Positions 12,196-47,235 of a stretch of 55,574 nucleotides of DNA are shown piece after piece. The position numbers were made by a program, and so were the translations under genes. This DNA comes from Patescibacteria group bacterium (GTDB lineage Bacteria; Patescibacteriota; Patescibacteriia; Magasanikbacterales; GWA2-37-8). Numbering within the stretch: the stretch's first letter is position 1; every line of letters starts with the position of its first letter. The notes under the pieces are model-generated. The model saw only the letters and a list, made by a program, of their open reading frames with translations, did no database searches and had not been told where the DNA came from. The stretch is from positions 1 to 55,574 of the forward strand of contig SCQK01000001.1 in NCBI GenBank assembly GCA_004321885.1. The letters are read 5' to 3'.

Positions 12196-12225
12196 AAATC
12201 TCCCCGCGCGGAAAAATTTTTTACT
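12196..12225 (+). terminator. intrinsic terminator-like hairpin (ccgcgcgg) plus T-run after mrcA
   Basis: ctccccgcgcggaaaaatttttt. Confidence 0.4.
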
Positions 12226-14955: not shown

Positions 14956-14979
14956 GTCATTCCCGCGAAAGCGGGAATC
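14956..14979. repeat. palindromic repeat family A (GTCATTCCCGCGAAAGCGGGAATC)
   Basis: gtcattcccgcgaaagcgggaatc immediately upstream of dnaA. Confidence 0.8.
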
Positions 14980-15090
14980 TATTTTTGAAAGTTACCAATA
15001 CATTTTAGCACAGCGCTCCCGGTTGTCCAATACTGTCAAATCCGTTTGGGTGGATGAATTGTGGAAAAACTGTGCACAACTCTCTTCGCA

Positions 15091-22703: not shown

Positions 22704-22731
22704 GTCATTCCCGCGAAAGCGGGAATCCAGG
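22704..22731. repeat. palindromic repeat family A
   Basis: gtcattcccgcgaaagcgggaatccagg, upstream of tig. Confidence 0.8.
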
Positions 22732-32799: not shown

Positions 32800-34116
32800 A
32801 TGTCACAACTTACTGTCGTGGTTGGCGCCCAGTGGGGCGATGAGGGCAAGGGGAAAATAACCGACTATCTGGCCAAAGACGCCGACTTTGTGGTTCGTTT
32901 CCAAGGAGGCAACAACGCCGGACATACGTTGGTAGTTGGGGATAAAATTTACAAACTACACCTGATTCCATCGGGTGTTTTGTATCCGGGCGCGGTTTCA
33001 ATAATCGGCAACGGCGTGGTGGTGGACCCGCTCACCCTGCTAAAAGAAATCAGCGAGTTTAAAAAAGACGGCCTGGCGCTTAATCTAAAAATCAGCAACC
33101 GTTGTCATGTCATCATGCCATATCACATTGCCTTGGATGGGGCTTTGACCGGACATCAGGGCGGGCTGGCCGCCGGCAGCACCAACCGCGGCATTGCCCC
33201 GGTCTGCGCCGATAAAAGCTATCGTCACGGCATCCGGCTGGGCGATTTGCTGGAACCGGAAATGCTTCGGGAAAAATTAGCCGTGTCATACAATTTCAAC
33301 AAAGCGATTTTGGAAAAAATTTTTAACACGCCTTTCGCCCTGTCGGAAGAAGAAATTTATAATCAGTTTTTGGATTATGGCAAATTATTGGCGCAGTACA
33401 TTGACGATACTGATGTTTTGCTTTATCGCGCCTACAAAGAAGGCAAAAATATCTTGTTTGAAGGGGCGCAGGGTTTGTCCTTGGATCTGGATGTCGGCGT
33501 GTACCCGCATACCACCAGCACCAACACGTTGGCCAGCCATATCGGCGTGGGCACGGGCGTGGGATACGACGGGAATAAACGCGTAATCGGAGTGGCCAAG
33601 GCATACGTGAGCCGCGTGGGCACCAGTCCTTTTATCACCGAACTGCCCGAAGAAGAAGCCAAGGCCTTGCGCGACAAGGGCGGCGAATACGGCACGACCA
33701 CTGGCCGTCCGCGCCGCGTGGGCTGGCTGGATTTGGTGCAACTGCGGCAGGCCGTGCGCTGTAACGGGCTGACTGAATTGGCGCTCATTAAATTGGACGT
33801 GCTAGCCGATTATGAAAAAGTGTTGGTTTGCACCTCGTATGATATAGATGGAAAAGACACCAGAGAAATGCCGGCCAGTTTGTCGCAGTTGCGCCGGGCC
33901 AAACCGGTTTATCAAGAATTCACCGGTTGGCCGGTGATAGATGGAACGGCTTTGAAACAAGGCGGGTTTAAGGGGTTGCCGCTTGAGATAAAAAACTTTG
34001 TGGAGTTTATTGAGAAAGAAACAGAGTGTCCGATCAGTATGTTGTCGTTCGGACCGGAGCGGGAACAAACCATTATTCGTGTCATTGCGAGCGAAGCGAA
34101 GCAATCCCATTCGTAA
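32800..34116 (+). CDS. purA: adenylosuccinate synthetase
   Basis: QWGDEGKGKITD, GGNNAGHT and GTTGRG motifs. The C-terminal 12 aa are encoded by the family C repeat. Confidence 0.95.
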   Translation: MSQLTVVVGAQWGDEGKGKITDYLAKDADFVVRFQGGNNAGHTLVVGDKIYKLHLIPSGVLYPGAVSIIGNGVVVDPLTLLKEISEFKKDGLALNLKISNRCHVIMPYHIALDGALTGHQGGLAAGSTNRGIAPVCADKSYRHGIRLGDLLEPEMLREKLAVSYNFNKAILEKIFNTPFALSEEEIYNQFLDYGKLLAQYIDDTDVLLYRAYKEGKNILFEGAQGLSLDLDVGVYPHTTSTNTLASHIGVGTGVGYDGNKRVIGVAKAYVSRVGTSPFITELPEEEAKALRDKGGEYGTTTGRPRRVGWLDLVQLRQAVRCNGLTELALIKLDVLADYEKVLVCTSYDIDGKDTREMPASLSQLRRAKPVYQEFTGWPVIDGTALKQGGFKGLPLEIKNFVEFIEKETECPISMLSFGPEREQTIIRVIASEAKQSHS

Positions 34117-34163
34117 TTATAGGGATTGCTTCGGTCCCGACTAAGTCGGGGCCTCGCAATGAC
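34081..34163. repeat. composite nested palindromic element (family C arms gtcattgcgag...gaagcaatccc / gggattgcttcg...ctcgcaatgac enclosing a family-B core)
   Basis: Spans the purA stop and the annotated purL start. Confidence 0.8.
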
Positions 34164-36540
34164 AACATCAAATATGATAACGACTGATTTCACGAAAATG
34201 GATGAAGCGCAAATAAAGGAATTTTTGGTTGCCAACAGAATCGCGCTGACGGTGGAAGAAATTTTGAAGATCCAAAACGAAATCTTGAAACGGCCACCCA
34301 CGCTGGCCGAGTGTATTTTGTGGTCCATTCAGGGATCAGAGCACAGCTCGTACAAATCCAGTCGTCCGCACTTGAAACAATTTCACACCAGCGGTCCCAA
34401 CGTAATACTCGGCCCCAGTGAAGACGCCGGCATTGTGGAAATTTGCTGCGACAACGAGGGCCGAAAATACGGCGTAGTGATAAGCCACGAATCGCACAAT
34501 CATCCGTCGCAAGTGGTGCCCTACGAGGGCGCGGCCACGGGCGTAGGCGGCAATGTGCGCGATGTCTGCTGCATGGGCGCGAAAGTAATCGCCTGCGCCG
34601 ACCCTCTGCGCTTCGGACAAATTGACAGTAATAAATCCAAATGGGTGCACGAGGGCGTGGTCTCGGGCATTGCCGGCTATGGCAATCCAATCGGCGTGCC
34701 AAACATCGGCGGCGACTTGTATTACGACGAATCCTACAATGAAAATTGTCTGGTCAACATTGTTACTTTGGGTGTCTTGCGCGAAGACGACATCATACAC
34801 TCGCGCGCGCCGCAAAACGCCGATGGTTATGATTTGGTTTTGGTCGGCAAGCCAACTGACAACAGCGGCTTTGGTGGCGCCAGTTTTGCTTCGTTGGAAT
34901 TAAAAGAAGAAGAAAAAGAACTCAACAAGGGCGCGGTGCAGGAGCCGAACGCTTTTTTGAAGCGCCATTTGCTCAAATCCACCTACGCGCTTTTCAAAAA
35001 AATAAAAGAGGGCGGTTTGATGGATAAAGTGGGTTTCAAAGATTTGGGCGCCGGAGGAATTGCCTGCGCTTCAGTGGAATTGGCCGACGCGGCCGGCTAT
35101 GGCGCCGAAGTGGATATTGATAAAATCCCCAAGGGCATGAACGGACTTAATCCGGCCGTGATTTTGTGCTCCGAGACGCAGGAAAGATTTATGTGGGTGA
35201 GTCATCCGGACGTGACACCGGTTATTTTGGAGCATTATAATGAAATCTTTGATTTGCCCGGCATTGCCGAAGGCGCGCGAGCGGCGGTGGTGGGGAAAAT
35301 TCGCGCTGACGGGCGCTATGTGGTGACAGCCGGCGGAGAAGAAATCGTGAGCGCGCGAGCGCAAGACGTGACACGGGGATTATTGTACAATCGGCCATGG
35401 GAAAAACCCGAGAAAAAATTGAGTGAACCAAACTTGCCCGAGCCAACCGATTACAGTGAAATACTTTTAAAAATTTTGGCCCACGAAAATGTGGCCTCGC
35501 GTTTGCCGGTTTATGAACAGTACGACAAGCAAGTGCAGGGCATCACAATGATTGAATCGGGCCGGGCTGACGCGGGCGTTTTGCAGCCATTTAAGGATGA
35601 CAGTTACCCGGAGGAAATTCGGCAAACCGGCGTCGCTTTGTCAGTGGACCAAAATCCGCGCTACTCCAAGATTGATTCTTATTGGGGGGCGGTAAACGCG
35701 GTAGTGGAAAGCTGCCGCAATGTGGCGGCTGTCGGCGCTGTGCCGTGGGCGTTGACCGATTGTTTGTGCTATGGCAATCCGGAAAAGCCAACCCAGATGT
35801 ATGAATTCGTGGAAGGGGCGCGCGGGGTGGCCGAGGCGGCCAAGGGTTTGCATTTGAAGGACTTCCCGGAAAATCCGGTGCCGATTGTTTCGGGCAATGT
35901 GTCGCTTTACAACGAAAGCAAAGGCAAACCCATCGCTCCCAGCGCCATAATTTCATGCACCGGAAAATTGAGCGACGTGAAGTGCGCGATTGACATGTCG
36001 TTTAAAAAAGCCGACTCAATTATTTTTATGGTCGGCGAGCGCAAAGACGAATGCGGGGGCAGTGTTTATTATAATTTGTTTAAAGAATTGGGAGCCAATG
36101 TACCCAAGCCGGATTTGGCGGAAGCGGAAAAACAAATTTTTGCCGTGACTGACGCGATAGAGGCTGGTCTGGTTTTGGCGGCTCACGATATTTCCGACGG
36201 CGGCTTGGCCGTCTGCTTGGCCGAGATGAGTTTTGGAAATGAGATTGGTTTCGTCTGTCATTCCCGCGAAAGCGGGAATCCAGGGTCGCAACTTCGCCCC
36301 GACAAAGTTCTTTTTTCCGAAACCGGCGGTTTTGTTTTGGAAGTGTCGCCGGAAAACCGCGGCGCAGTGGAAGAAATTTTCGCCAAACGCGGAGTAAAAA
36401 TCTTTGCCATCGGAAAAACCGCCTGTCATTCCGGGCTTGACCCGGGATCCATAACAACGTTAAAGTTTGGAGATGTAATCAACGTACCTTTAAAAGAAGC
36501 AAAAAAAGCGTGGACAGAGGGTTTGTGGGGCAAGCTGTAA
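34126..36540 (+). CDS. purL: phosphoribosylformylglycinamidine synthase subunit PurL
   Basis: PurM-like duplicated domains of FGAM synthase II. The true start is probably MTTSNM at ~34159. Contains an in-frame family A repeat (VCHSRESGNPGSQ). Confidence 0.9.
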   Translation: MLRSRLSRGLAMTTSNMITTDFTKMDEAQIKEFLVANRIALTVEEILKIQNEILKRPPTLAECILWSIQGSEHSSYKSSRPHLKQFHTSGPNVILGPSEDAGIVEICCDNEGRKYGVVISHESHNHPSQVVPYEGAATGVGGNVRDVCCMGAKVIACADPLRFGQIDSNKSKWVHEGVVSGIAGYGNPIGVPNIGGDLYYDESYNENCLVNIVTLGVLREDDIIHSRAPQNADGYDLVLVGKPTDNSGFGGASFASLELKEEEKELNKGAVQEPNAFLKRHLLKSTYALFKKIKEGGLMDKVGFKDLGAGGIACASVELADAAGYGAEVDIDKIPKGMNGLNPAVILCSETQERFMWVSHPDVTPVILEHYNEIFDLPGIAEGARAAVVGKIRADGRYVVTAGGEEIVSARAQDVTRGLLYNRPWEKPEKKLSEPNLPEPTDYSEILLKILAHENVASRLPVYEQYDKQVQGITMIESGRADAGVLQPFKDDSYPEEIRQTGVALSVDQNPRYSKIDSYWGAVNAVVESCRNVAAVGAVPWALTDCLCYGNPEKPTQMYEFVEGARGVAEAAKGLHLKDFPENPVPIVSGNVSLYNESKGKPIAPSAIISCTGKLSDVKCAIDMSFKKADSIIFMVGERKDECGGSVYYNLFKELGANVPKPDLAEAEKQIFAVTDAIEAGLVLAAHDISDGGLAVCLAEMSFGNEIGFVCHSRESGNPGSQLRPDKVLFSETGGFVLEVSPENRGAVEEIFAKRGVKIFAIGKTACHSGLDPGSITTLKFGDVINVPLKEAKKAWTEGLWGKL
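36257..36284. repeat. family A repeat, in-frame in purL
   Basis: gtcattcccgcgaaagcgggaatccagg. Confidence 0.8.
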
Positions 36541-36590
36541 AAAAAGAAGCGGTCCCGCGAGCAAAGGCGCTCGCGGAACCGCCACGGCCC

Positions 36591-36827
36591 TCACTTGGAC
36601 CCCAGACCCGAGACGGACTTGTAGTTCACGCCGAGGTAGAGCGTGCGGTCCGTGCCGAGCGCATTGAACTGCTCGATCTGGGTCCGGATGCTCTGAAGCA
36701 GGGCCTCCCCGACCGTTTTCGGATCGCCTCCGTCCGGGATGCTGGACGTCTCCTTGTTGTCGTCCAGGTTCCTTGCCGCTCTACTGACGGGCGTCTCTCC
36801 ATAGTCTTCCCCATCATCAGGCCTCAT
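36591..36827 (-). CDS. small acidic hypothetical protein (78 aa) in a GC-rich islet inside the pur operon
   Basis: AAGGAGAGG RBS 5 nt before ATG. GC-rich. Flanked by the hairpin gcggtcccgcgagc/gctcgcggaaccgc at 36546-36585. Confidence 0.4.
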   Translation of the reverse strand: MRPDDGEDYGETPVSRAARNLDDNKETSSIPDGGDPKTVGEALLQSIRTQIEQFNALGTDRTLYLGVNYKSVSGLGSK

Positions 36828-36896
36828 CGCGTCCTCTCCTTGTCTTGCCCCCTTAAAATTCTAAATCGTACTCAATTCTACAAAAATTAGCCATTT

Positions 36897-38060
36897 ATGT
36901 CAAACATCTCTTATTCCGATTCCGGCGTCAATTACCAGGCGCTTGATCCGGTGAAAAAATTGGCGCAAATCGCGGCCCGGTCCACGGCTCGTCATTTGTC
37001 GTCGTCCGGTTTCACCGAATCAGAAGACACGCGCGGCGAGTCGGCTTATGTTTGGCAGCAAGGCGACCTCCTGATGGCCTCGGTCATTGAAGGCCTGGGC
37101 ACCAAAAATTTGGTGGCTGACGCCATGCGTAAAATTACCGGCAAGACCTATTACGATATTGTCAGCCACGATACTGTGGCTACGATTATAAACGATCTTG
37201 TTTCGGTGGGCGCCAAGCCGCTTGCTCTCTTCGCTTACTGGGCCGTGGGCAAAAGCGAATGGCTGGCCGACGCGGAAAGGACAAAGGATTTGGCGGACGG
37301 CTGGAAGTCGGCTTGTGATTTAGCCCAAGTTTCCTGGGGAGGCGGCGAAACCCCCGCCTACGCCGGCATCATTAATCCGGAGACCATTGATTTGGCAGGT
37401 TCGGCCGTGGGTATTATTAAAGATAAAAATAATTTGCTCACGGACAAAAAAATACAGGCCGGAGACAGGATAATTTTTTTGAAAAGCAACGGCATAAACG
37501 CCAACGGTTTGTCGCTGGCGCGCGCGATTGCAAATACCCCCTCCTCGCCTCCCCCTTATAAAGGGGGAGGAAATCGTCTCCCTCCCCTTTATAAGGGGAG
37601 GGTTGGGGAGGGGTATGGTGCCAAGCTGCCAAGTGGCGTAATGTACGGAGAAGCATTACTCACAAAAACAAACATCTACGCGAAATTGGTACAGGACTTG
37701 CAGGCGGCAGAAGTAGATATACATTATATTACAAATATCACCGGACATGGATTGCGTAAAGTTATGCGCGGTAGGCCGAATTTTACATACGTAATAGAGA
37801 AAATTTTTGAACCGCTGGAATTATTTATTTTTATGCAAGGTCAGGCCGGGCTTTCGGATTTTGAAATGTATCAGACGTTTAACATGGGGCAGGATTACGC
37901 GATTTACTTATCAGCCGCCGACGTGGCCCGCGCTTTGGAAGTGATAAAACAAAATAATTTTACAGGCATTGAGGCGGGTTTTGTGGAAGCGGGCGAAAAG
38001 CGCGTGATAATCAAACCGAAGAATTTAGAGTATAAAGGAGAGACGTTGGATTTGAGATAA
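36897..38060 (+). CDS. purM: phosphoribosylformylglycinamidine cyclo-ligase (AIR synthetase)
   Basis: SYSDSGVNYQALDP and PurM N- and C-terminal domain patterns. Contains a tandem in-frame family D insertion (SPPPYKGGGNRLPPLYKGRVGEG). Confidence 0.85.
   Translation: MSNISYSDSGVNYQALDPVKKLAQIAARSTARHLSSSGFTESEDTRGESAYVWQQGDLLMASVIEGLGTKNLVADAMRKITGKTYYDIVSHDTVATIINDLVSVGAKPLALFAYWAVGKSEWLADAERTKDLADGWKSACDLAQVSWGGGETPAYAGIINPETIDLAGSAVGIIKDKNNLLTDKKIQAGDRIIFLKSNGINANGLSLARAIANTPSSPPPYKGGGNRLPPLYKGRVGEGYGAKLPSGVMYGEALLTKTNIYAKLVQDLQAAEVDIHYITNITGHGLRKVMRGRPNFTYVIEKIFEPLELFIFMQGQAGLSDFEMYQTFNMGQDYAIYLSAADVARALEVIKQNNFTGIEAGFVEAGEKRVIIKPKNLEYKGETLDLR
37537..37614. repeat. tandem family D repeats, in-frame in purM
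   Basis: cccctcctcgcctcccccttataaagggggagg...cctcccctttataaggggagggttggggaggggt. Confidence 0.8.
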
Positions 38061-38065
38061 ACATT

Positions 38066-39412
38066 ATGAAAGTCGCCATCATACAATTCCCCGGCAGTAA
38101 CTGTGAATCGGAATCCATTTACGCGGTGCGGCGCGCCGGCATGGAGCCGGTGGAATTTTTGTGGAATCAAGAGCACGACGAGCTGAAAAATTTTGACGGC
38201 TATTTCATCGTGGGCGGATTTTCCTACGAAGACCGCTCGCGCTCGGGCATCATCGCCTCGCTTGATCCCCTGCTTACCGCCTTGAAAGCGGAAAACGAAA
38301 AAGGCAAACCGATTCTGGGCGTTTGCAATGGGGCGCAGATTTTGGTGGAGTCGGGCATTGTGCCGGGCCTAGCCGACTATGCCGTGGGCCACCACACCAA
38401 AGATTTTGGTGTGGTGGCAGGTATGGCGCTCGCTGTAAACAAACGAGTGAAAGACGGACGCGTGCTGGGCACCGGATTTTATAATTCCTGGTCCAACGTC
38501 CAACTGTCGGCCCCGAGCGAACGCTCGGCTTTCACGCGCCACATGAAGCCGGGCGAATTTATAAATATTCCCGTGGCGCACGGCGAAGGCCGCTTTACCA
38601 TGCCGGACGAACTCTTGGCCGAATTGATTGTCAAAAACCAAACAGTGTTTCGCTACTGCGATGACAGGGGAGAAATCAGTTCGGAATTTCCGGTAAATCC
38701 GAACGGCTCCATGCATAATTTAGCGGCTGTCTGCAACGCGGCCGGCAACGCCATGGCCATGATGCCCCACCCCGAACGCACGCCGAACGGCCAAGCCATT
38801 TTTACTTCCATGCGCGAGTATGTTGAAAAAGAAAAAACCATAACGATGAAAAACGTTACGGATAATTTCCGGCCAACCGTGATGGAAATATCCGAGTATA
38901 AGCCGGAACCAAATTCTACAGAATTAGTCATCGGTTTAATCATTACAGACAATGAAGCCGGCACGGTAAAAAATACTTTGCGTCGGTTGAATATTGACGC
39001 GGAAATTACGAAATACATTCACTGGGAAATTTCGGCTGACGACCCGGCGACGATTGTCGCTTCGCCGGCTTGCCGCGACGAGCTATTTAACTCCAACAAA
39101 GAAAAGATAGTGCAACTGGGCTCCACAGCCCCGGTCGCCTGCGGCGACCGTGGGACTATGGAGTCAACCAATGCGCTTCAGAATGACAATACGGCTTATC
39201 TGCTCGTGCGCTATCGCGAAGATTTCGTGGGGCAAAGCAAACAGTATGTTTTGGAAAATCGGCTGGGCGTTTCCGGGGTTAAAAAGATAACCAAAGGCAC
39301 GCTCTGGAAAATTTCCGCGCCCAGTGATAGGATTGAGGAAATCGTAAGCAAGGTTATTTCCAGCAGGATTTTATTCAATCAATTTTCACAGGGGTGTTTT
39401 AAATATATATAG
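38066..39412 (+). CDS. purQ: FGAM synthase glutaminase subunit PurQ with a ~210-aa C-terminal extension, possibly tandem PurS-like domains
   Basis: Class I glutamine amidotransferase triad: GVCNGAQIL Cys and the His in PHPER. The extension resembles two ~85-aa PurS-like modules. Confidence 0.8.
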   Translation: MKVAIIQFPGSNCESESIYAVRRAGMEPVEFLWNQEHDELKNFDGYFIVGGFSYEDRSRSGIIASLDPLLTALKAENEKGKPILGVCNGAQILVESGIVPGLADYAVGHHTKDFGVVAGMALAVNKRVKDGRVLGTGFYNSWSNVQLSAPSERSAFTRHMKPGEFINIPVAHGEGRFTMPDELLAELIVKNQTVFRYCDDRGEISSEFPVNPNGSMHNLAAVCNAAGNAMAMMPHPERTPNGQAIFTSMREYVEKEKTITMKNVTDNFRPTVMEISEYKPEPNSTELVIGLIITDNEAGTVKNTLRRLNIDAEITKYIHWEISADDPATIVASPACRDELFNSNKEKIVQLGSTAPVACGDRGTMESTNALQNDNTAYLLVRYREDFVGQSKQYVLENRLGVSGVKKITKGTLWKISAPSDRIEEIVSKVISSRILFNQFSQGCFKYI

Positions 39413-39413
39413 T

Positions 39414-40805
39414 ATGGATTACACTTCCATCATCAGACAAAATCTGAATAATTGTCTGACGCAGACGAATTTAAATATCGGCAAGAAAAAAATTGGCAAG
39501 GTGCGCGATACCTATGAACTCGCCGATAAAATGATTCTAGTCACTACTGACCGACAGAGCGCTTTTGACCGCATTTTGGCTTCCATCCCGTTTAAGGGGC
39601 AAGTGCTCAATCAAACCAGCGCCTGGTGGTTTGAAAAAACCAAACACATTATCCCCAATCATGTTTTGTCTATCCCCGACCCCAACGTGACCATGGCCAA
39701 AAAATGCCAAGTTTTTCCGATTGAGTTTGTGGTGCGCGGGTATATCACCGGCACCACCGACACTTCGGCTTGGGTAAATTATCAAAAAGGGGTGCGTAAT
39801 TTTTGCGGCAACGCTTTACCCGAGGGTCTGAAAAAAAATCAGCAGCTGGCCAAGGCGATTGTCACGCCCACCACCAAGTCCGACGCCCACGACCGTCTGA
39901 TCAGTCCCGAAGAGATTATCGCCGAAGGACTGATGTCGCGTGAAGATTGGAACTTCGCTTCAACCAAGGCCCTGGAACTTTTTGAATTCGGCCAACAAGT
40001 GGCTCGCGAGCACGGCTTGATTTTGGTTGACACCAAATACGAGATGGGTAAAGACGAAAACGGCAATATTATTTTGTTAGACGAGATCCACACGCCCGAT
40101 TCCAGTCGCTATTGGATCGCCGAAACATACGAAGACCGTTTCGCCGCCGGACAAGAACCGGAAAACATAGATAAAGAATTTTTGCGCTTGTGGTTTAAAG
40201 AACACTGCGACCCGTATGGCGACAAAGAACTGCCGCCGGCGCCCGAGGAATTGGTGGTGGAATTATCCCGCCGCTATATCATGCTTTACGAAATGATTAC
40301 TGGCGAAAAATTTGTTTTCCCGGAGGACGCCGACATCAACGAGAGAATGAAAAATAATTTGGCTGTCATCGCGAACTCTCCTCTGAGAATAAACTCCGCA
40401 AAGCAACCCCCCGCAAAAAGGGCGGTGATAATAATGGGTTCGGAAGCGGACGCGGAGTTCACGAAAAAGATTACGATAAAATTGGACGAACTGGGGGTCA
40501 GCCACGAAGAGCATGTCGCGTCGGCGCACAAACAGCCGGCAAAGGTTTTGGAAATTTTAGAGAAAAATAAAAATGAGAAAGTGGTGTACGTGACCATCGC
40601 CGGCCGTTCCAACGCGCTCTCGGGTTTTGTGGCCGCCAATTCCGACGCGCCCACCCTGGCCTGTCCACCCTTTGTCGACAAGCTGGATATGCTCGTGAAC
40701 ATTCACTCTACTTTGCAGATGCCGAGTAACGCGCCAGTTTTAACCGTGCTTGATCCAGGCAACTGCGCCTTGGCCGTTAAAAGAATTTTTGATATATGTC
40801 GCTAA
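39414..40805 (+). CDS. purC: fusion protein: SAICAR synthetase (PurC) plus C-terminal PurE (AIR carboxylase / N5-CAIR mutase) domain
   Basis: PurC N-terminal motif GKVRDTY...VTTDRQSAFD. PurE C-terminal motif AVIIMGSEADAE...VASAHKQP...VTIAGRSNALSGFVAANSDAPTLACPP. Confidence 0.85.
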   Translation: MDYTSIIRQNLNNCLTQTNLNIGKKKIGKVRDTYELADKMILVTTDRQSAFDRILASIPFKGQVLNQTSAWWFEKTKHIIPNHVLSIPDPNVTMAKKCQVFPIEFVVRGYITGTTDTSAWVNYQKGVRNFCGNALPEGLKKNQQLAKAIVTPTTKSDAHDRLISPEEIIAEGLMSREDWNFASTKALELFEFGQQVAREHGLILVDTKYEMGKDENGNIILLDEIHTPDSSRYWIAETYEDRFAAGQEPENIDKEFLRLWFKEHCDPYGDKELPPAPEELVVELSRRYIMLYEMITGEKFVFPEDADINERMKNNLAVIANSPLRINSAKQPPAKRAVIIMGSEADAEFTKKITIKLDELGVSHEEHVASAHKQPAKVLEILEKNKNEKVVYVTIAGRSNALSGFVAANSDAPTLACPPFVDKLDMLVNIHSTLQMPSNAPVLTVLDPGNCALAVKRIFDICR

Positions 40806-42130
40806 CTTCCGTTTCTCCCTTAGACGGACGCTACGAAAGCCAGACAAAAGAACTCTCCCCCTATTTTTCCGAAATGGCGCTGATGAAATATCGCGTCATG
40901 GTTGAAGTTGAGTATTTAATCGCGTTGGGGGCGGAGAAAGAAATTAAGGAAGTCATTCGCTTTTCGGAAAAAGAGCAAAAAAATTTACGCTCGCTTTATA
41001 AGCGCTTTTCTTTGGCCCACGCCGAGCGGGTGAAAGAAATTGAAAATACCACCAGTCATGATGTGAAAGCGGTTGAGTATTTTATTAAGGAGAAATTTCC
41101 CAGTGAATTTATACATTTCGCGCTGACTTCCGAGGACATCAATAATCTTGCCTATTCTTTAATGCTTAAAGACGGATTGGAAAAAGTGATTTATCGCGCC
41201 GTGGAGCAGATTTTGAAAGCGCTTAAAAACTTGGCCAAAGCCAACGCCCGCGTTCCCCTGCTGGCCTTCACCCATGGCCAGCCCGCCACCCCCACCACGC
41301 TCGGCAAGGAAATGGCGGTTTTTTACAAACGGCTTTTACGCGGCCTGAATCACCTCAAATTTATCAAACTGGACGGAAAATTAAACGGGGCCACCGGCAA
41401 TTACGCGGCCGCGGCCTTGGCCTACCCGCAAGTTGACTGGATAAAATTTTCCCAAAAATTCGTGAGCTCGCTGGGCCTGAACCCTAATTTGCTCACCACG
41501 CAGATAGAACCGCACGATTGTTCGGCCGCGGTTTACGACGCCATCGCGCGCCTGAACAATATTATAAAGGACTTGGACCAGGATATATGGCTCTACGTCA
41601 GCCGCGGCATTTTCAAATTGCGAAAAAAAGCCGGCGAGGTCGGCTCTTCCACCATGCCGCACAAAGTGAACCCGATTAATTTTGAAAACAGCGAAGGCAA
41701 TCTGGGTGTGGCTAACGCCATTTTGCGTTTCATGTCCGACAAGCTGGTGGTAAGCCGTCTGCAACGCGACCTCACCGACAGCACGGTGATTCGCAATCAA
41801 GGCGCGGCGCTGGGCTACAGTCTGCTCGCCTATAAAAATACGCTCAAAGGTTTGGAAAAATTGGAAGTGAACAAAAAACAATGCGAGAAAGAGCTGGATG
41901 AGCATTGGGAAGTACTGGCCGAGGCGGTGCAGACGGTTTTGCGCAAGGTGGGATACGAGAAGCCCTATGAAAAATTGAAAGAATTGACCCGTGGAGAAAA
42001 AGTGGATAAAAAAATAATGCGGGCTTTTATAGCGGGACTGGAAATTTCCAATGAAGAAAAAAATAAATTGATGAAATTGACACCCGCAAAGTATGTAGGG
42101 TTGTCGGAGAAATTAGTAAAGTTAATTTAG
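40796..42130 (+). CDS. purB: adenylosuccinate lyase
   Basis: SPLDGRYES... and the fumarate lyase signature GSSTMPHKVNP. Confidence 0.95.
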   Translation: MSLTSVSPLDGRYESQTKELSPYFSEMALMKYRVMVEVEYLIALGAEKEIKEVIRFSEKEQKNLRSLYKRFSLAHAERVKEIENTTSHDVKAVEYFIKEKFPSEFIHFALTSEDINNLAYSLMLKDGLEKVIYRAVEQILKALKNLAKANARVPLLAFTHGQPATPTTLGKEMAVFYKRLLRGLNHLKFIKLDGKLNGATGNYAAAALAYPQVDWIKFSQKFVSSLGLNPNLLTTQIEPHDCSAAVYDAIARLNNIIKDLDQDIWLYVSRGIFKLRKKAGEVGSSTMPHKVNPINFENSEGNLGVANAILRFMSDKLVVSRLQRDLTDSTVIRNQGAALGYSLLAYKNTLKGLEKLEVNKKQCEKELDEHWEVLAEAVQTVLRKVGYEKPYEKLKELTRGEKVDKKIMRAFIAGLEISNEEKNKLMKLTPAKYVGLSEKLVKLI

Positions 42131-42132
42131 TT

Positions 42133-42214
42133 GTCATTGCGAGGAGGCCTGCAGGCCGACGCGGCAATCCCTTACAAGTTTGGGATTGCTTCGGCCTAAA
42201 GGCCTCGCAATGAC
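42133..42214. repeat. family C composite palindromic element filling the purB-purF intergenic region
   Basis: gtcattgcgag-gaggcctgcaggcc...gcaatccc / gggattgcttcggcctaaaggcc-tcgcaatgac. Confidence 0.8.
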
Positions 42215-42222
42215 AAAATTCT

Positions 42223-45072
42223 ATGTGCGGAGTTGTAGGAATTTATTCCAAAAAACCAGTGGCGCAGGAATTGTATGATTCTTTAATCCACTTACAGCAT
42301 CGCGGGCAAGACGCGGCCGGCATTTTGACGTACCAAGAAAAATTTCATTTCAAAAGGGGGCTGGGACTGGCGCGCGATATTTTCCACACGCACGACATGG
42401 AGCGGCTCACCGGCAATATCGGCATCGCGCACACGCGCTACCCCACCACCGGCCGCATTGAAATTGAAGATGCCCAGCCGTTTTGGACCGGCGTGCCTTT
42501 TGGCATGGCCTTGGCGCATAACGGCAATCTGGTAAATTACAACGAGGTCAAGCGTAAGGTTTTTGAAGAACGTCATCGCTATGTCAACTCCACCAGCGAC
42601 GGCGAAGTAATTTTGCACGTGTTGGCCGATGAGTTGGTAAAAGGCATGGCAGAAAATCACGTTGATACTTTTTTTGACCTGCTGTGCGACGCCGTGGCCC
42701 GTCTTTTCAAAGCGACCAGCGGAGCATATTCAGTGGTCAGCATTATCGTGGGCAAGGGCATGCTGGCGTTTCGCGATCCGCATGGCATCCGTCCGCTCAC
42801 GCGTGGCGCGCGCGTCAATCCCGATGGCAGCAAGGACTATATTTTTGCTTCCGAAAACATCATGTTTTATCCGCTTGGCTTTAAGCAAGAAGAGGATGCA
42901 AAACCCGGCGAGGTGATATTTATAGACAACGACGGCAATTTACACAGCAGAGTGGTTGGACGCGAAGCCGCTTTGGGCCAGCGCGAACCCGAATTTTCTC
43001 CTTGCATTTTTGAATACATTTATTTCGCGCGCCCAGACTCTATGATGAATAACGTGAGCGTGTACCGCTCGCGTCTGCGCATGGGACAAAATTTGGCCAA
43101 GGCGTGGAAGACAAAATTTCCCAACGTAATGCCCGACGTCGTCATACCCGTGCCTTTCACTTCCAACACCGCGGCATTGGCCATGGCGCACGAACTCGGC
43201 GTGCGCTACAGCGAAGGACTTTATAAAAACGCCTTCATCGGCCGCACTTTTATCATGCCCAATCAGGAATTGAGGCGAAAGTCAGTGCGCTACAAGCTTA
43301 ATCCGCAGGAAACGGAAATTCGGGACAAAAATGTGATGCTTTTGGACGACAGCATCGTGCGCGGCACGACCAGCCGTGAAATCGTGCAAATGATGCGTGA
43401 GTTTGGAGCCAAGGAAGTATATTTTGTCACCACTTGCCCGCCGGTCAAATTTCCGTGCTTTTACGGAGTGGACATGCCTACGAAATCAGAACTTGTCGCG
43501 TCGGCCCGGACCGAAGAAGAAGTGAGATTATATATCGGCGCTGATATTTTGCTTTATCAAAACATTCCCGACTTGGTGGAAGCAGTCACGCGCGTTCAAA
43601 GCATAGAGCACCCATGTATGGCTTGCCTGAACGGGCACTACGTGACCGGCGACGTGGATGAAAAAAAATTTAAAGAAATAGAAGCGAGTAGAAATAAAGA
43701 TAAGGGGATTAAAAAATCTATGGATATACTTATTATCGGTTCAGGAGCACGCGAGCATGCGATTGCGCGCGCGGTGGTTCGCTCACCGCAAAAACCGCGG
43801 CTGTTTTGTTTTGCTTCAAGCAACAACCCGGGCATACGCGAACTATCGGTCGGTTACGCGGTGGGAAAAATTACCGACCCAACGGCGGTGATAAATTTCG
43901 CCAAAGAGAACGCGATTGATATCGCTATCGTGGGCCCCGAAGCCCCGCTGGCCTCTGGCGTGGCTGACGCCTTGTGGGCGGCAGGCGTGGCTTGTGTTGG
44001 ACCAAAGCAAAAATTGGCGCGGCTGGAAACGAGTAAGGGTTTTACGCGCGATTTACAGGCCGAATTTAAGATTCCGGGCAGTCCGAAATACAAAAAATTC
44101 AGTTCTTTGGAAGGGGCTAAAGAATTTTTATCCGAGCTCGGCGATTTGTACGTGGTAAAAGCGGACGGCCTGATGGGAGGCAAAGGAGTGAAAGTGGCCG
44201 GGGATCATTTGCATACTTATGAAGAAGCGCTGGCCTATTGTCAGGAATTATTGGATAGTTGTCATTCCCGCGAAAGCGGGAATCCAGGTGCGGCCTTTGT
44301 CATCGAAGAAAAGTTAATCGGCCAGGAATTTTCACTGATGAGTTTTTGCGACGGCGAGCATTTGGCTCACACGCCCGCGGTTCAAGATCACAAGCGGGCT
44401 TTTGACGGCGACCAGGGGCCAAACACGGGAGGCATGGGAAGTTATAGCGACGCGGATCATAAATTGCCTTTTTTGACTGATGAAGATATCTGGCAGGCGC
44501 GCGAGATAAATAAAAAAACCGCGGTGGCTTTGAAGGCGAAATTCGGGGAGGGATATGTTGGTGTTTTGTATGGAGGATTTATGGCTACGGCGGACGGAGT
44601 AAAATTGATAGAGTATAATGCCCGTTTGGCCGACCCGGAGGCGATGAACATATTGGCCGTGCTGGAATCGGATTTCGCGGCGCTGTGTCAGGCGATTGTG
44701 GGCGGAAATTTAAGACAAGAGCACGCGCTTTTCGCGAACAAGGCGACGGTTTGTAAATACGCCGTGCCCGAGGGCTACCCGGACAGTCCGGTAAAAAATC
44801 AAAAAATAGACACGAGCGGCGTAGCCGACAAAAATCAATTGTATTTGGCTTCGGTTGACGCGCGAGATGATGGGTTGTACGAACTGGGCTCGCGCGCCAT
44901 CGCGGTGGTGGGCGTGGCCGATACAATTGCCGAGGCGGAAAAAATTGCGGAAGCGGAAGTCAACAATATCAAAGGCCCGCTGTTTCACCGTCAAGACATT
45001 GGAACTCCGGAATTAATTAATAAGAGAATCCAACACATGTCATTCCTGCGAAAGCAGGAATCCAGGATATGA
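42223..45072 (+). CDS. purF: fusion protein: amidophosphoribosyltransferase (PurF) plus phosphoribosylamine-glycine ligase (PurD)
   Basis: N-terminal MCGVVGI nucleophile and PRTase domain to ~aa 480. A continuous frame then runs into the PurD ATP-grasp domain (MDILIIGSGAREHAIA...). Two in-frame family A repeats. Confidence 0.85.
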   Translation: MCGVVGIYSKKPVAQELYDSLIHLQHRGQDAAGILTYQEKFHFKRGLGLARDIFHTHDMERLTGNIGIAHTRYPTTGRIEIEDAQPFWTGVPFGMALAHNGNLVNYNEVKRKVFEERHRYVNSTSDGEVILHVLADELVKGMAENHVDTFFDLLCDAVARLFKATSGAYSVVSIIVGKGMLAFRDPHGIRPLTRGARVNPDGSKDYIFASENIMFYPLGFKQEEDAKPGEVIFIDNDGNLHSRVVGREAALGQREPEFSPCIFEYIYFARPDSMMNNVSVYRSRLRMGQNLAKAWKTKFPNVMPDVVIPVPFTSNTAALAMAHELGVRYSEGLYKNAFIGRTFIMPNQELRRKSVRYKLNPQETEIRDKNVMLLDDSIVRGTTSREIVQMMREFGAKEVYFVTTCPPVKFPCFYGVDMPTKSELVASARTEEEVRLYIGADILLYQNIPDLVEAVTRVQSIEHPCMACLNGHYVTGDVDEKKFKEIEASRNKDKGIKKSMDILIIGSGAREHAIARAVVRSPQKPRLFCFASSNNPGIRELSVGYAVGKITDPTAVINFAKENAIDIAIVGPEAPLASGVADALWAAGVACVGPKQKLARLETSKGFTRDLQAEFKIPGSPKYKKFSSLEGAKEFLSELGDLYVVKADGLMGGKGVKVAGDHLHTYEEALAYCQELLDSCHSRESGNPGAAFVIEEKLIGQEFSLMSFCDGEHLAHTPAVQDHKRAFDGDQGPNTGGMGSYSDADHKLPFLTDEDIWQAREINKKTAVALKAKFGEGYVGVLYGGFMATADGVKLIEYNARLADPEAMNILAVLESDFAALCQAIVGGNLRQEHALFANKATVCKYAVPEGYPDSPVKNQKIDTSGVADKNQLYLASVDARDDGLYELGSRAIAVVGVADTIAEAEKIAEAEVNNIKGPLFHRQDIGTPELINKRIQHMSFLRKQESRI
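44261..44288. repeat. family A repeat, in-frame in the purD portion
   Basis: gtcattcccgcgaaagcgggaatccagg, translating to SCHSRESGNPGA. Confidence 0.8.
45039..45066. repeat. family A variant (cctgcg/cagg) at the purFD 3' end / purN start
   Basis: gtcattcctgcgaaagcaggaatccagg. Confidence 0.75.
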
Positions 45073-45653
45073 TAAAACTCGCCGTCCTCGGCTCTACCCG
45101 CGGCACAGACATGCAGGCGATAGTTGACGCGATTGAGCGAAAGGAGCTGAACGCAAAAATTGAAGTAGTGGTAAGCAATAAGCTGGACGCGTATATCTTG
45201 GAACGCGCGCGCAGGCACGGTTTGGAGGCGGTTTTTGCGGACATGAGAAGAGAAAGTGGAGAAAAAAAAACGCGCGAAGAATTTGACGCCGAGGTTTTAA
45301 AAATTTTAGAGGCAAAGCAAGTTGATTTAGTTTTGCTTATTGGCTATATGCGTATTTTATCGCCTACCTTTGTGCGAAAATACAAGGGCCGAATTTTGAA
45401 CGTGCACCCTTCCTTGCTTCCGGATTTCGCCGGCGGCATGGACATGGATGTGCACGCCGAGGTAATAAAAGCGGGCGTGAAAGAAACCGGTTGCACGATT
45501 CACCTGGTGGACGAGGGCGTGGATACAGGAGAGATTATTTTGCAAAAACGCTGCGCCGTGGAGCCAACCGACACAGCCGACACGCTCAAAGCTAAAGTGC
45601 AAAAACTTGAAGGTGAAGCGTTTGTGGAGGTATTAAGAAATTGGAAATTTTAA
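45069..45653 (+). CDS. purN: phosphoribosylglycinamide formyltransferase
   Basis: ILNVHPSLLP and the rest of the formyltransferase core. Confidence 0.9.
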   Translation: MIKLAVLGSTRGTDMQAIVDAIERKELNAKIEVVVSNKLDAYILERARRHGLEAVFADMRRESGEKKTREEFDAEVLKILEAKQVDLVLLIGYMRILSPTFVRKYKGRILNVHPSLLPDFAGGMDMDVHAEVIKAGVKETGCTIHLVDEGVDTGEIILQKRCAVEPTDTADTLKAKVQKLEGEAFVEVLRNWKF

Positions 45654-45654
45654 T

Positions 45655-47235
45655 ATGCATACAGAAGTCGTTAGAATAAATCGGGCGCTGATTTCGGTGT
45701 CAAATAAAACCGGCATAGCGGAGTTTGCCCGCGAACTCCAAAAATTGGGCGTGGAAATAATTTCCACCGGCGGCACGCACAAATTGCTTTGCGAAAACAA
45801 AATACCGGCCGTGGAAATTTCCCAGTACACCGGCTTTCCGGAAATGATGGACGGCCGCGTGAAAACCCTGCACCCCTTGGTGCACGGTGGCATCTTGGGT
45901 TTGCGGGATAAACACGCCGAAGCCGCAGCCGGCCATAATATTAAATGGATTGATTTGGTGGTTTGCAATTTGTATCCTTTTTTGGAAACAATAAAAAAAC
46001 CCGGCGTAACCGAGGAGGAAGCGATTGAAAACATAGACATCGGCGGGCCCACCATGATTCGCTCGGCCGCCAAAAATATTGGCTGGACGTGCGCGGTGGT
46101 TGACCCCGAGGATTATAGTAAAATTTTGGCTGAAATAAGAGAAAAAAACGGAGTAAGTTTTGACACGCGCAAAGCACTTTCGGCGAAAGCGTACGCGCAC
46201 ACGACGCGCTATGACGCGGTGATTTCCAATTATTTCAAGCCGGAAAAATTTCCCAAAGAACTCTCGCTCGGTTTTGCTAAATATTATGATTTGCGCTACG
46301 GCGAAAATCCGCATCAGCAAGCCGCGGCCTACAAAGACGAGCTCTGCGCCACAGCGAATATTTTTTTAGCGAAAATCTTGCAGGGCAAGCAGTTATCGTA
46401 CAACAATTTCATTGACGCGGACGCGGCCCTGCAGATGGTAAAGGAATTTGAGCCGCCGGCTTGCGTGATTGTGAAGCATAACAATCCCTGCGGAGCGGCC
46501 ATTGCCGAAAACGCGGAAGCGGCTTTCGCCAAAGCGTTTGCCTGCGATTCGTTGTCGGCTTTCGGCGGGGTGGTGGCGCTTAATCGCGAGTGCGACGCGG
46601 CTCTGGCCGAGAAACTCTCCAAAATATTTTTGGAAATCGTGCTCGCGCCCAAGTTCGCGCCTGCGGCCGTGGAAATTTTATCTAAAAAACAAAATCTGCG
46701 CTTGCTGGAATTGGAAAAAATATCAGTGCCGGCCAGCCGGCTGACTTACAAGCTGATTGAGGGTGGGCTCTTGGCGCAAGACAGCAATACAAAAGAAATT
46801 ACCGAAGCGGATTTGAAAGTCGTGACCAAGCGCCGGCCCGAAACAGGCGAAATTCAAGCCATGCTCTTCGCCTGGAAAATATTGAAGCACATGAAATCAA
46901 ACGCCATTTTGATAGCCAAGGCCGACGCCACGGTGGGAATCGGCGTGGGCCAAGTGTCACGCGTGGATTCGGTGGATATTGCCATAAAAAAATCCGGTAT
47001 GGCTGGCTCCATAGTCCCCGACTTAGTCGGGGCCGTGGAGCCGTTCGCCGGCTGCGTGCTGGCCTCGGACGCCTTTTTCCCCTTCCGCGACAGCATAGAC
47101 AAAATCGCGGCCGCCGCCGGCGTCAAAGCCATTGTCCAGCCCGGGGGTTCCATCAAAGACCAGGAAGTCATCGCGGCCTGCGACGAACACGGCATCGCCA
47201 TGGTCTTTACCGGCCATCGCTGTTTCGCGCATTGA
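45655..47235 (+). CDS. purH: bifunctional AICAR transformylase / IMP cyclohydrolase
   Basis: MGS-like N-terminal region (ALISVSNKTG) and the AICARFT domain. Contains an in-frame family B repeat. Confidence 0.95.
   Translation: MHTEVVRINRALISVSNKTGIAEFARELQKLGVEIISTGGTHKLLCENKIPAVEISQYTGFPEMMDGRVKTLHPLVHGGILGLRDKHAEAAAGHNIKWIDLVVCNLYPFLETIKKPGVTEEEAIENIDIGGPTMIRSAAKNIGWTCAVVDPEDYSKILAEIREKNGVSFDTRKALSAKAYAHTTRYDAVISNYFKPEKFPKELSLGFAKYYDLRYGENPHQQAAAYKDELCATANIFLAKILQGKQLSYNNFIDADAALQMVKEFEPPACVIVKHNNPCGAAIAENAEAAFAKAFACDSLSAFGGVVALNRECDAALAEKLSKIFLEIVLAPKFAPAAVEILSKKQNLRLLELEKISVPASRLTYKLIEGGLLAQDSNTKEITEADLKVVTKRRPETGEIQAMLFAWKILKHMKSNAILIAKADATVGIGVGQVSRVDSVDIAIKKSGMAGSIVPDLVGAVEPFAGCVLASDAFFPFRDSIDKIAAAAGVKAIVQPGGSIKDQEVIAACDEHGIAMVFTGHRCFAH
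47007..47044. repeat. family B 38-bp palindrome, in-frame in purH
   Basis: ggctccatagtccccgacttagtcggggccgtggagcc, translating to GSIVPDLVGAVEP. Confidence 0.8.

What the first reader, a model, noticed from the sequence alone, without database searches (positions are those of the whole stretch)
42223..45072. purF and purD appear fused into one 949-aa protein
The PurF amidotransferase/PRTase domain and the PurD ATP-grasp domain share one uninterrupted frame. PurF ends at ...KDKGIKKS and continues MDILIIGSGAREH with no stop in between. The two enzymes catalyse consecutive steps (PRPP to PRA to GAR), and PRA is unstable, so a fusion would allow channelling. I do not recall this fusion as a common bacterial arrangement.
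Basis: partly seen in the sequence, partly recalled or inferred. Interest (0 to 1): 0.6.

Follow-up and report, generated by a model that had tools for sequence, protein, structure and literature searches.

The report
Natural PurF–PurD fusion enzyme gene
The first two enzymes of purine synthesis are encoded here as one 949-residue protein, a rare arrangement that has arisen several times in uncultured microbes and would keep a very short-lived intermediate (phosphoribosylamine) close to the enzyme that uses it.

Summary
Window 42223-45072 (+) is one uninterrupted 949-codon ORF. It holds a complete PurF (aa 2-473 plus its natural C-terminal tail to about aa 494-496) and a complete PurD (aa 500-930). 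It sits in a purA-purL-purM-purQ-purCE-purB-purFD-purN-purH operon.

The architecture is real but rare. 37 other single-ORF PurF-PurD proteins exist in public data, from independent assemblies, with spacers of 8-76 aa. One is 1101 aa and also carries PurN. They occupy only about 4-5 clusters among 5494 strong hits in the 50%-identity representative library.

Two fused clades keep the fusion over deep divergence, so it is functional there. These are a Woesearchaeota-labelled clade and a bacterial clade.

This instance is a singleton. Its nearest relatives (59-69% identity, 24 metagenome loci plus L008 and L088) all have separate purF and purD, mostly with an ATGA stop/start overlap. The window's version has almost no linker and still has PurD's Met.

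Best reading: a genuine, lineage-specific fusion made by a small frameshift at a translationally coupled junction, giving 1:1 tethering that limits phosphoribosylamine loss. Channelling is inferred, not shown.

One missing base at 43702-43709 would restore a stop, so read-level confirmation is still needed. I found no paper describing this fusion.

The parts
42223..45072 (+). purFD: single 949-codon ORF encoding PurF fused to PurD. The stop is TGA at 45070-45072.
42226..43641 (+). PurF catalytic part (aa 2-473): Ntn glutaminase domain starting at Cys2 (M-C-G-V-V-G, no propeptide) plus PRTase domain with DDSIVRGTT. It is the long E. coli-type chain but has four Cys at the positions I recall as the B. 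subtilis 4Fe-4S ligands (SPCIFEY, FPCFYGVD, CMAC).
   Evidence: The residue-by-residue alignment is to the top two solved chains, 8w7d and 6czf. 1ecb (E. coli PurF) is table-only, with the same span.
43642..43719 (+). PurF C-terminal tail, which acts as the only linker (aa 474-499, VTGDVDEKKFKEIEASRNKDKGIKKS). It is homologous to the natural tail of unfused PurF up to about aa 494. Only GIKKS is extra. AF2 pLDDT is below 50 at aa 495-498.
43661..43668 (+). A8 homopolymer inside the tail. The frame on both sides is supported by homology (EKKFKEIE aligns with tails of relatives).
43702..43712 (+). AAGGGGA (SD-like, 11 nt before the internal ATG) followed by an out-of-frame TAA at 43710-43712. 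One extra base within 43702-43709 would end PurF at this TAA, 7 nt before the purD ATG. This is the only place where a single-base error could create a false fusion with a natural-looking layout.
43720..45012 (+). PurD part (aa 500-930): GARS_N, GARS_A (ATP-grasp) and GARS_C domains. It begins with the retained Met of the former purD start codon.
44261..44288 (+). 28-nt hairpin repeat (GTCATTCCCGCGAAAGCGGGAATCCAGG) inserted in frame in the PurD half. It adds 9 residues (within SCHSRESGNPG) that are absent from all 37 fused homologues. AF2 predicts a disordered loop there (aa 681-688, pLDDT below 50).
45039..45066 (+). Second copy of the hairpin repeat, with two compensatory stem changes. With the flanking bases it encodes most of the last 11 codons (MSFLRKQESRI) and abuts the purN start.
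45069..45072 (+). ATGA overlap of the purFD stop with the purN start (translational coupling to the next gene).
32800..47235 (+). Surrounding purine operon: purA 32800-34116, purL 34126-36540, purM 36897-38060, purQ with C-terminal extension 38066-39412, purC-purE fusion 39414-40805, purB 40796-42130, purFD, purN 45069-45653, purH 45655-47235.

Best explanation
The ORF is a genuine bifunctional enzyme: glutamine-PRPP amidotransferase (PurF) joined to GAR synthetase (PurD).

How it formed. In the nearest relatives purF and purD are adjacent and translationally coupled, usually through an ATGA overlap of stop and start. A small indel, net +1 nt, in the last few codons of purF put PurF in frame with the purD ATG and removed the stop. 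The result has no added linker: the natural PurF C-terminal tail plus about 5 residues runs straight into PurD's Met.

Why PurF comes first. Its catalytic nucleophile is the free N-terminal Cys, so it must be at the N-terminus. Every fused homologue has this order.

What the fusion does. It fixes a 1:1 ratio of the two enzymes. It also tethers the PRA-producing PRTase site near the PRA-consuming ATP-grasp site. Less of the labile PRA (half-life 5 s at 37 C) is then lost to hydrolysis. This works through proximity or a transient docked state, not a rigid sealed tunnel.

Shown: one uninterrupted ORF; both halves complete, with conserved catalytic motifs; operon context; recurrence and long-term retention of the same architecture in other lineages; the unfused, overlapping state in the nearest relatives.

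Inferred: the indel mechanism, that the fused polypeptide is the active form, and that it improves PRA transfer.
For: ORF and domains:
- One ORF with full-length equivalog matches for both enzymes.
- Catalytic motifs are invariant across 38 fused proteins: C2, R72-Y73, N100-G101, D126, DDSIVRG (375-381), and the PurD GGMG, E-N-R-D and K columns.

The architecture exists elsewhere:
- 37 other fused proteins of 870-1101 aa, at 36-60% BLASTP identity or 37-62% in the alignment. They come from NCBI, JGI, ENA and Logan assemblies.
- Their spacers are unrelated in sequence and 8-76 aa long.
- Six were verified as single open frames on their contigs.

The fusion is retained over time:
- Clade C: 21 clusters, pairwise identity down to 47%, spacer 24-36 aa (28 aa in 12 of the 18 measured, with one 76-aa outlier).
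- Clade A1: 7 clusters at 59-84% identity.

Pathway context:
- The fused genes sit in purine operons.

Origin of this copy:
- The nearest relatives are unfused, and 15 loci have a stop/start overlap (14 ATGA, 1 TGATG). The PurF tails align with the window's up to ...RNKDK.

Assembly quality:
- More than 20 other genes in the window match full-length family models, so this is not an indel-ridden assembly.
- Gene order around the junction is the same in relative L008.

Structure prediction:
- AF2 folds both halves confidently (mean pLDDT 89.1) with a flexible junction.

Chemistry and the long-standing channelling proposal:
- PMC2978367 and PMC10912719.
Against: - All 24 metagenome relatives plus L008 and L088 (48-69% identity) are unfused. 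The window's fusion is therefore a singleton with no second, independent sequence confirming this particular junction.
- One extra base in 43702-43709 would give a normal PurF stop (TAA at 43710) 7 nt before the purD ATG. An assembly error cannot be excluded from the sequence alone.
- The retained Met and an SD-like AAGGGGA upstream leave room for separate PurD synthesis.
- AF2 pTM is only 0.59, so no confident PurF-PurD interface or tunnel is predicted.
- No biochemical data exist for any fused member.
- For another labile intermediate (ProB/ProA), assumed channelling was recently refuted (PMC11573504; title and abstract as listed).
Confidence: 0.6

Rival explanations
1. The fusion is real in the DNA but is a recent, effectively neutral accident. 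A frameshift at an overlapping stop/start junction joined two genes that were already co-translated. The cell tolerates the fused product, or still makes free PurD from the internal AUG. There is no selected channelling benefit in this lineage.
For: - This is a singleton among unfused close relatives.
- It has an almost zero-length linker, a retained Met500, and an SD-like AAGGGGA 11 nt upstream. That spacing resembles the GGGAGGG of the H+-PPase gene in the same window.
- The fused/unfused state flips at least 4 times within the bacterial clade. Unfused L088 is nested in a 100%-supported fused clade. The state is therefore evolutionarily labile.
- AF2 predicts no defined interface.
Against: - Other clades keep the fusion across divergence down to 47% identity, which argues that the architecture is at least not harmful and probably useful.
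- The same architecture arose repeatedly in different PurF/PurD lineages.
- Both halves of the window protein are intact.
Confidence: 0.25
2. This is a sequencing or assembly artefact. The true sequence has one more base in the AAGGGGAT stretch (43702-43709). PurF would then end ...NKDKGD at the TAA at 43710, and purD would start 7 nt later as a separate gene.
For: - The indel scan shows that a single inserted base there gives a stop 10 nt before the ATG.
- The resulting PurF tail length would match the unfused relatives.
- All close relatives are unfused.
Against: - The run is only G4, which is not a typical error site for short-read assemblies.
- More than 20 genes in the 55-kb window are full length against family models, with no sign of frameshifts.
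- The relatives' usual layout is an ATGA overlap, whereas the window has ATGG. The window therefore differs from that layout by more than one base.
- 37 independent fused homologues show that such fusions do occur.
Confidence: 0.08
3. Recoding produces several products. A -1 ribosomal or transcriptional slip on A AAA AAA T (43662-43669) would terminate at the TAA at 43671 and give a free PurF lacking the tail. Read-through would give the PurF-PurD fusion, as with dnaX tau/gamma.
For: A slippery heptamer lies in the right register, and a stop follows two codons later in the -1 frame.
Against: - I did not look for a stimulatory element.
- A-rich runs are common in this tail in relatives.
- The motif is not conserved at this position in the fused homologues.
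Confidence: 0.03

Closest known systems
E. coli PurF (GPATase) and PurD (GAR synthetase) as separate enzymes with proposed transient PRA channelling (Rudolph & Stubbe 1995; docking model of Wang et al. 1998, as summarised in PMC10912719)
   Same: Same two reactions and the same labile intermediate. The window's PurF half aligns end to end with the E. coli-type PurF structures: residue-by-residue with 8w7d and 6czf (aa 1-494), and the same span for 1ecb in the table. The PurD half aligns from residue 1 of solved PurDs.
   Different: Here the two are covalently joined in one polypeptide. In E. coli no stable complex could be detected. The window's PurF also keeps four Cys at the positions I recall as the Fe-S ligands, which the E. 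coli-type structures lack at three positions (FPNVYG, ECSVFNG).
Uncharacterised PurF-PurD fusion proteins in metagenomic data, e.g. P0028, P0035 and P0121 (labelled Candidatus Woesearchaeota archaeon), P0017 (Candidatus Diapherotrites archaeon), and the bacterial clade P0002-P0007/P0009
   Same: Identical domain order and content. They mostly sit in purine operons.
   Different: They are only 36-62% identical to the window protein. The window protein does not group with any of them to the exclusion of unfused genes. Their spacers are longer or lack the Met. The databases name them as plain PurF or PurD.
Eukaryotic multifunctional purine enzymes: GART (PurD-PurM-PurN) and PAICS (PurC-PurE)
   Same: Fusion of purine-pathway enzymes. 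PAICS joins consecutive steps with proposed channelling (PMC8988938, PMC2978367). The same window also has a PurC-PurE fusion.
   Different: GART joins non-consecutive steps and never includes PurF. In eukaryotes PPAT remains a separate protein.
Fusions of enzymes around other labile intermediates, e.g. the glutamate 5-kinase / GP reductase pair
   Same: The logic of tethering two enzymes around an unstable intermediate.
   Different: For bacterial ProB/ProA, direct channelling was recently tested and rejected (PMC11573504; title and abstract as listed). This warns that fusion or instability alone does not prove channelling.

Membership tests
PurF, amidophosphoribosyltransferase (TIGR01134) | Full-length match above the curated cutoff | tested here: met
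   461 bits against a cutoff of 350; aa 2-473 over model positions 1-431/432
PurF, amidophosphoribosyltransferase (TIGR01134) | N-terminal nucleophile Cys directly after the initiator Met (Ntn amidotransferase), plus the glutaminase residues R-Y, N-G and D | tested here: met
   The protein starts MCGVVGI. C2, R72, Y73, N100, G101 and D126 are invariant in 38 fused proteins and align with the E. coli-type PurF structures.
PurF, amidophosphoribosyltransferase (TIGR01134) | PRPP-binding PRTase motif (acidic pair followed by S-I-V-R-G-T-T) | tested here: met
   LLDDSIVRGTTS at aa 373-384. D375 to R380 are invariant, and G381 and T383 nearly so.
PurF, amidophosphoribosyltransferase (TIGR01134) | Catalytic activity (Gln + PRPP to PRA) | not testable with these tools
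   Needs an enzyme assay or complementation of a purF mutant.
PurD, phosphoribosylamine-glycine ligase (TIGR00877) | Full-length match above the curated cutoff, with N, ATP-grasp (A) and C domains | tested here: met
   425 bits against a cutoff of 288; aa 500-930 over model positions 1-423/425. GARS_N 500-602, GARS_A 603-807 and GARS_C 842-928 are all above Pfam cutoffs.
PurD, phosphoribosylamine-glycine ligase (TIGR00877) | Conserved ATP-grasp and substrate residues | tested here: met
   The columns R510-E511-H512, K646, K654, E695, Q721-D722-K724, N734-T-G-G-M-G739 and E797-N799-R801-D804 are invariant across 38 proteins. The 9-aa repeat insertion lies in a loop predicted to be disordered.
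PurD, phosphoribosylamine-glycine ligase (TIGR00877) | Catalytic activity (PRA + Gly + ATP to GAR) | not testable with these tools
   Needs an enzyme assay.
PurF-PurD fused architecture (informal group of 38 database proteins) | Both complete enzymes in one ORF, PurF N-terminal | tested here: met
PurF-PurD fused architecture (informal group of 38 database proteins) | Common descent of the fusion (fused proteins form one clade) | tested here: not met
   Fused and unfused genes are interleaved, with at least 4 state changes in the bacterial clade. P0016, P0017 and clade C group with different unfused PurFs and PurDs. The window shares its Cys motifs with unfused L091, L092 and L100, not with fused clade A1. 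The support for the window's exact sister group is weak (54%).
Substrate-channelling bifunctional enzyme | A defined interdomain interface or tunnel linking the two active sites | tested here: inconclusive
   The AF2 model has pLDDT 89.1 but pTM 0.59 and a junction with pLDDT below 50, so the relative orientation is not predicted with confidence.
Substrate-channelling bifunctional enzyme | Kinetic evidence of direct PRA transfer | not testable with these tools
   Needs transient-time, trapping or competition experiments.

The most novel reading that the evidence does not exclude
PurF-PurD fusion has been invented repeatedly in small-genome uncultured bacteria and DPANN-labelled archaea. There are at least five separate fused lineages in the NJ trees: the window, clade A1, P0010-13, P0008/14 and archaeal clade C, plus P0016 and P0017. 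Tethering would give a real advantage in handing over phosphoribosylamine. These natural fusions would then be the stable form of the PurF:PurD channelling complex that has escaped detection since 1995. They would let the transfer path be seen directly by crystallography or cryo-EM and measured kinetically.
Probability: 0.4. Interest if true: 0.65.

Novelty: new variant of a known kind. Interest (0 to 1): 0.5.

Why it matters
Phosphoribosylamine is one of the most labile intermediates of central metabolism. How it gets from PurF to PurD has been argued about for 30 years: kinetic evidence supports channelling, yet no stable complex has been detected (PMC10912719, PMC2978367).

A natural covalent PurF-PurD enzyme is 'Rosetta-stone' evidence that the two proteins work together. 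This holds especially for one that evolved several times and is retained across deep divergence. It also offers a tractable protein for capturing the transfer geometry.

The window and its relatives show an unusual density of purine-enzyme fusions. These include PurC-PurE, PurD-PurN, PurD-PurN-PurH, PurA-PurM, PurN-PurH, PurF-PurM, PurF-PurC and PurF-PurD-PurN. That makes these lineages a natural experiment in pathway compaction.

For annotation, such proteins are currently named as plain PurF or plain PurD, so pathway reconstructions for these organisms can wrongly score one step as missing.

Tried and rejected
- GTDB species-genome scan. Five loci seemed to cover both halves (L008, L009, L010, L023, L028). 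Frame analysis showed all are adjacent separate genes whose tblastn pieces had been joined. I had first noted four of them as fused and corrected this in the notebook.
- Alternative genetic code (UGA = Gly, as in Gracilibacteria) as the cause of apparent fusions. Rejected for the window, where long genes are intact under table 11, and for L001, which has the same open frame under both tables.
- Frameshift at the A8 run. Rejected, because residues after it align with the tails of relatives and with E. coli-type PurF structures.
- Single-base indel scan of the junction. Only an insertion at 43702-43709 gives a natural-looking unfused layout. One-base deletions in the last ~40 nt run on to a stop 169 nt inside purD.
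- Looking up the window protein's contig record: not on record.
- Cluster look-up for organism names: almost no names returned.
- Rfam scan for a riboswitch or leader in the operon: only three tRNAs elsewhere in the window.
- AF2 for an interdomain interface: both halves are confident, but the orientation is not.
- Literature: no paper names a PurF-PurD fusion. This covers only the open-access library held here.
- I ran no further search on confirming the 'Patescibacteria' label. The only hint in the window is a weak hit to a CPR-type pilus protein. The syntenic relative L008 is labelled Neomarinimicrobiota, so the taxonomy is uncertain.
Full report
**1. Observation**

- The ORF list shows a single ATG-initiated ORF at 42223..45072 on the + strand, 949 aa.
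- The DNA at the junction reads AAG GGG ATT AAA AAA TCT ATG GAT ATA CTT, which is KGIKKS-MDIL, with no stop.
- NCBIfam places a complete PurF at aa 2-473 (TIGR01134, 461 bits, model 1-431/432). It places a complete PurD at aa 500-930 (TIGR00877, 425 bits, model 1-423/425).
- Pfam agrees.
- Against solved structures, the PurF half aligns with E. coli-type PurF up to aa 494-496. PurD structures align from aa 500 = their residue 1.
- There is therefore no added linker. The 26-residue stretch between the PurF C-x-x-C-x-x-G-x-Y motif and PurD's Met is the ordinary C-terminal tail of long-type PurF plus about five residues (GIKKS).
- The frame across the A8 run (43661-43668) is confirmed by homology on both sides.

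**2. Context**

- The gene lies in a compact purine operon: purA, purL, purM, purQ (with a ~200-aa extension), a purC-purE fusion, purB, purFD, purN (ATGA overlap with the purFD stop), purH, then holA.
- The same 949-aa protein is in NCBI as 'amidophosphoribosyltransferase [Patescibacteria group bacterium]' on a contig of the window's length.
- More than twenty other genes in the window match full-length family models. The assembly is therefore not riddled with indels.
- Relative L008 has the same gene order through the junction, which argues against a chimeric join.

**3. Is the architecture real elsewhere?**

- Yes. The 5.8-billion-protein search returned 37 further proteins of 870-1101 aa that cover 98-100% of the query at 36-60% identity. 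They come from NCBI, JGI, ENA and Logan assemblies.
- Their spacers are unrelated in sequence and range from 8 to 76 aa. They cannot all be errors.
- Six of them were confirmed as single open frames on their contigs.
- Source labels include Candidatus Woesearchaeota and Candidatus Diapherotrites archaeon.
- One protein, P0003, is a PurF-PurD-PurN triple fusion.
- The architecture is nevertheless rare. In the exhaustive search of 1.84 billion 50%-identity representatives, only P0012, P0016 and P0022 plus two fragments carry both halves, among 5494 hits at E<=1e-30.
- The scan of GTDB species genomes gave no true fusion. The five apparent ones are adjacent genes.

**4. Retention**

- The archaeal-labelled clade C has 21 clusters with pairwise identity down to 47%. 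Its spacer is 24-36 aa, and 28 aa in 12 of the 18 members measured.
- The bacterial clade A1 has 7 clusters at 59-84% identity.
- Both clades keep the fusion.
- The catalytic columns of both enzymes are invariant across all 38 proteins.
- This is the signature of a working bifunctional enzyme in those clades.

**5. Where the window's copy comes from**

- A metagenome scan found 24 relatives at 48-69% identity. In every one that holds both genes, purF and purD are separate.
- The usual junction is an ATGA overlap, in which the purF TGA shares two bases with the purD ATG. This or a TGATG overlap is seen in 15 loci. Others have spacers of about 30-360 nt.
- In NJ trees of the concatenated halves, the window protein falls in a 93%-supported clade of 8 fused and 11 unfused genes. 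It is sister to nine unfused loci, but that node has only 54% support.
- An independent character agrees with this placement.
  - The window shares PPVKFPCFYGVD and CMACLNG (Cys retained) with unfused L091, L092 and L100.
  - Fused clade A1 and unfused L098 share the Cys-less PDFYGID / SMPYLDGWY.
- Fitch parsimony needs at least four fused/unfused changes within the bacterial clade. Unfused L088 is nested in a 100%-supported fused clade.
- Across the wider trees, P0016, P0017 and clade C sit next to different unfused enzymes.
- The fusion has therefore arisen, and probably also reverted, several times. The window's copy is its own event.
- The PurF tail aligns with the relatives' tails up to ...RNKDK. 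After that point the window has 15 nt before the ATG where ATGA-type relatives such as L094 have 8 nt. That is a net +1 frame change, which removes the stop.
- The retained Met500 fits a young fusion.

**6. Could it be an artefact?**

- The indel scan shows one scenario that would look natural. An extra base within 43702-43709 (AAGGGGAT) would end PurF at the TAA at 43710, 7 nt before the purD ATG.
- I cannot exclude this without reads.
- Three points argue against it.
  - The run is only four G.
  - The rest of the contig shows no frameshifts.
  - The window lacks the ATGA of its relatives (it has ATGG), so it differs from their layout by more than one base.
- I put this at about 8%.

**7. 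Mechanism**

- Established facts:
  - PRA hydrolyses with a half-life of 5 s at 37 C.
  - Direct PurF-to-PurD transfer was proposed from kinetics.
  - A docking model exists, but no stable complex was ever found (PMC2978367; PMC10912719; PMC11838385).
- PurF needs a free N-terminal Cys. This explains why PurF is N-terminal in every fusion, including the PurF-PurM and PurF-PurC fusions seen among relatives.
- AF2 folds both halves well (pLDDT 89.1). It gives pTM 0.59 and a low-confidence junction (aa 495-498), so it predicts a tether rather than a fixed interface.
- My best explanation is enforced 1:1 stoichiometry and proximity, with a transient docked state for PRA hand-over.
- The neutral-accident reading (25%) remains live for this particular copy. 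The copy is young, and an internal start may still give free PurD: the SD-like AAGGGGA is spaced as in the H+-PPase gene.
- The ProB/ProA case (PMC11573504) is a reminder that instability of an intermediate does not prove channelling.

**8. Novelty**

- Both enzymes are textbook. The fused architecture is present but unrecognised in databases, where it is named as plain PurF or PurD.
- It is absent from the literature I could search, including a 2011 survey of archaeal purine genes and a 2024 review of purine-pathway regulation.
- I rate it a new variant of a known kind, of moderate interest. It is not a new chemistry, but it is a natural reagent for a long-standing question.

Noticed in passing
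window 14956-14983, 22704-22731, 36257-36284, 44261-44288, 45039-45066 (all + strand): A 28-nt hairpin repeat, GTCATTCCCGCGAAAGCGGGAATCCAGG, occurs five times where none is expected by chance. Three copies are identical. Two copies are intergenic. One is in frame inside purL and one in frame inside the PurD half, and both of these translate to CHSRESGNPG. The fifth copy encodes most of the last 11 codons of purFD and carries two changes that are compensatory in the stem. This resembles Rickettsia-type palindromic elements that insert into coding genes. The hairpin core was not found in six related loci searched with a pattern (L001, L002, L003, L008, L028, L088).
   Followed up: partly
window 39414-40805 (+): A PurC-PurE fusion of 463 aa (SAICAR synthetase aa 27-270 plus AIR carboxylase/mutase aa 338-459). 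This is the domain pair and order of eukaryotic PAICS. The same fusion is seen in L001 (493 aa) and L006 (499 aa).
   Followed up: partly
window 38066-39412 (+): PurQ (aa 1-241) carries a ~200-aa C-terminal extension. Its only hit is a sub-threshold match to PurS (E = 0.002, 18.6 bits against a cutoff of 22.2). It may be a PurQ-PurS fusion.
   Followed up: partly
L001 4778-7129 and 12825-14963; L002 4109-6385; L098 4497-7928; L003 1828-5133; proteins P0124-P0129, P0153, P0169, P0237: Relatives show an unusual density of other purine-enzyme fusions: PurA-PurM (783 aa), PurN-PurH (712 and 758 aa), PurD-PurN-PurH (1144 aa, in one of the two closest relatives), PurF-PurD-PurN (1101 aa), PurD-PurN, PurD-PurN-PurM (1027 aa, a different order from GART), PurC-PurD, PurD-PurM, PurF-PurM and PurF-PurC.
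   Followed up: partly
window 42223-43719 (PurF half; Cys at aa 261, 412, 464, 467): This is a long, E. coli-type PurF chain without a propeptide. It keeps four Cys at the positions I recall as the B. subtilis 4Fe-4S ligands. The E. coli-type structures have N, E and V at three of those positions (FPNVYG, ECSVFNG). Within the same clade, the fused group P0002-7/9, P0015 and unfused L098 have lost them (PDFYG or PDLYG; SMPYLDGWY, SMPCLDGWY or HVAYFNGDY). That looks like a recent loss of the cluster.
   Followed up: partly
window 43662-43673 (+): A AAA AAA T lies in the zero-frame register of a -1 slippery heptamer. The -1 frame hits TAA two codons later (43671-43673). A slip would release a PurF-only product ending ...VDEKKI. 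This is speculative, and I did not look for a stimulatory element.
   Followed up: no
window 12221-14953 (-): dnaA (13565-14953) and dnaN (12221-13345) are adjacent, so the contig probably spans the chromosomal replication origin region. One hairpin repeat copy sits immediately upstream of dnaA.
   Followed up: no
window 52978-53604 (+); L008: The only CPR-specific hint in the window is a weak, far-sub-threshold hit to the CPR-type pilus protein PamT (45 bits against a cutoff of 240). L008 is syntenic with the window and among its close relatives, yet it is labelled Neomarinimicrobiota. The 'Patescibacteria' label of the source MAG may therefore not be secure. A complete de novo purine operon would be unusual for a typical CPR genome.
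   Followed up: no
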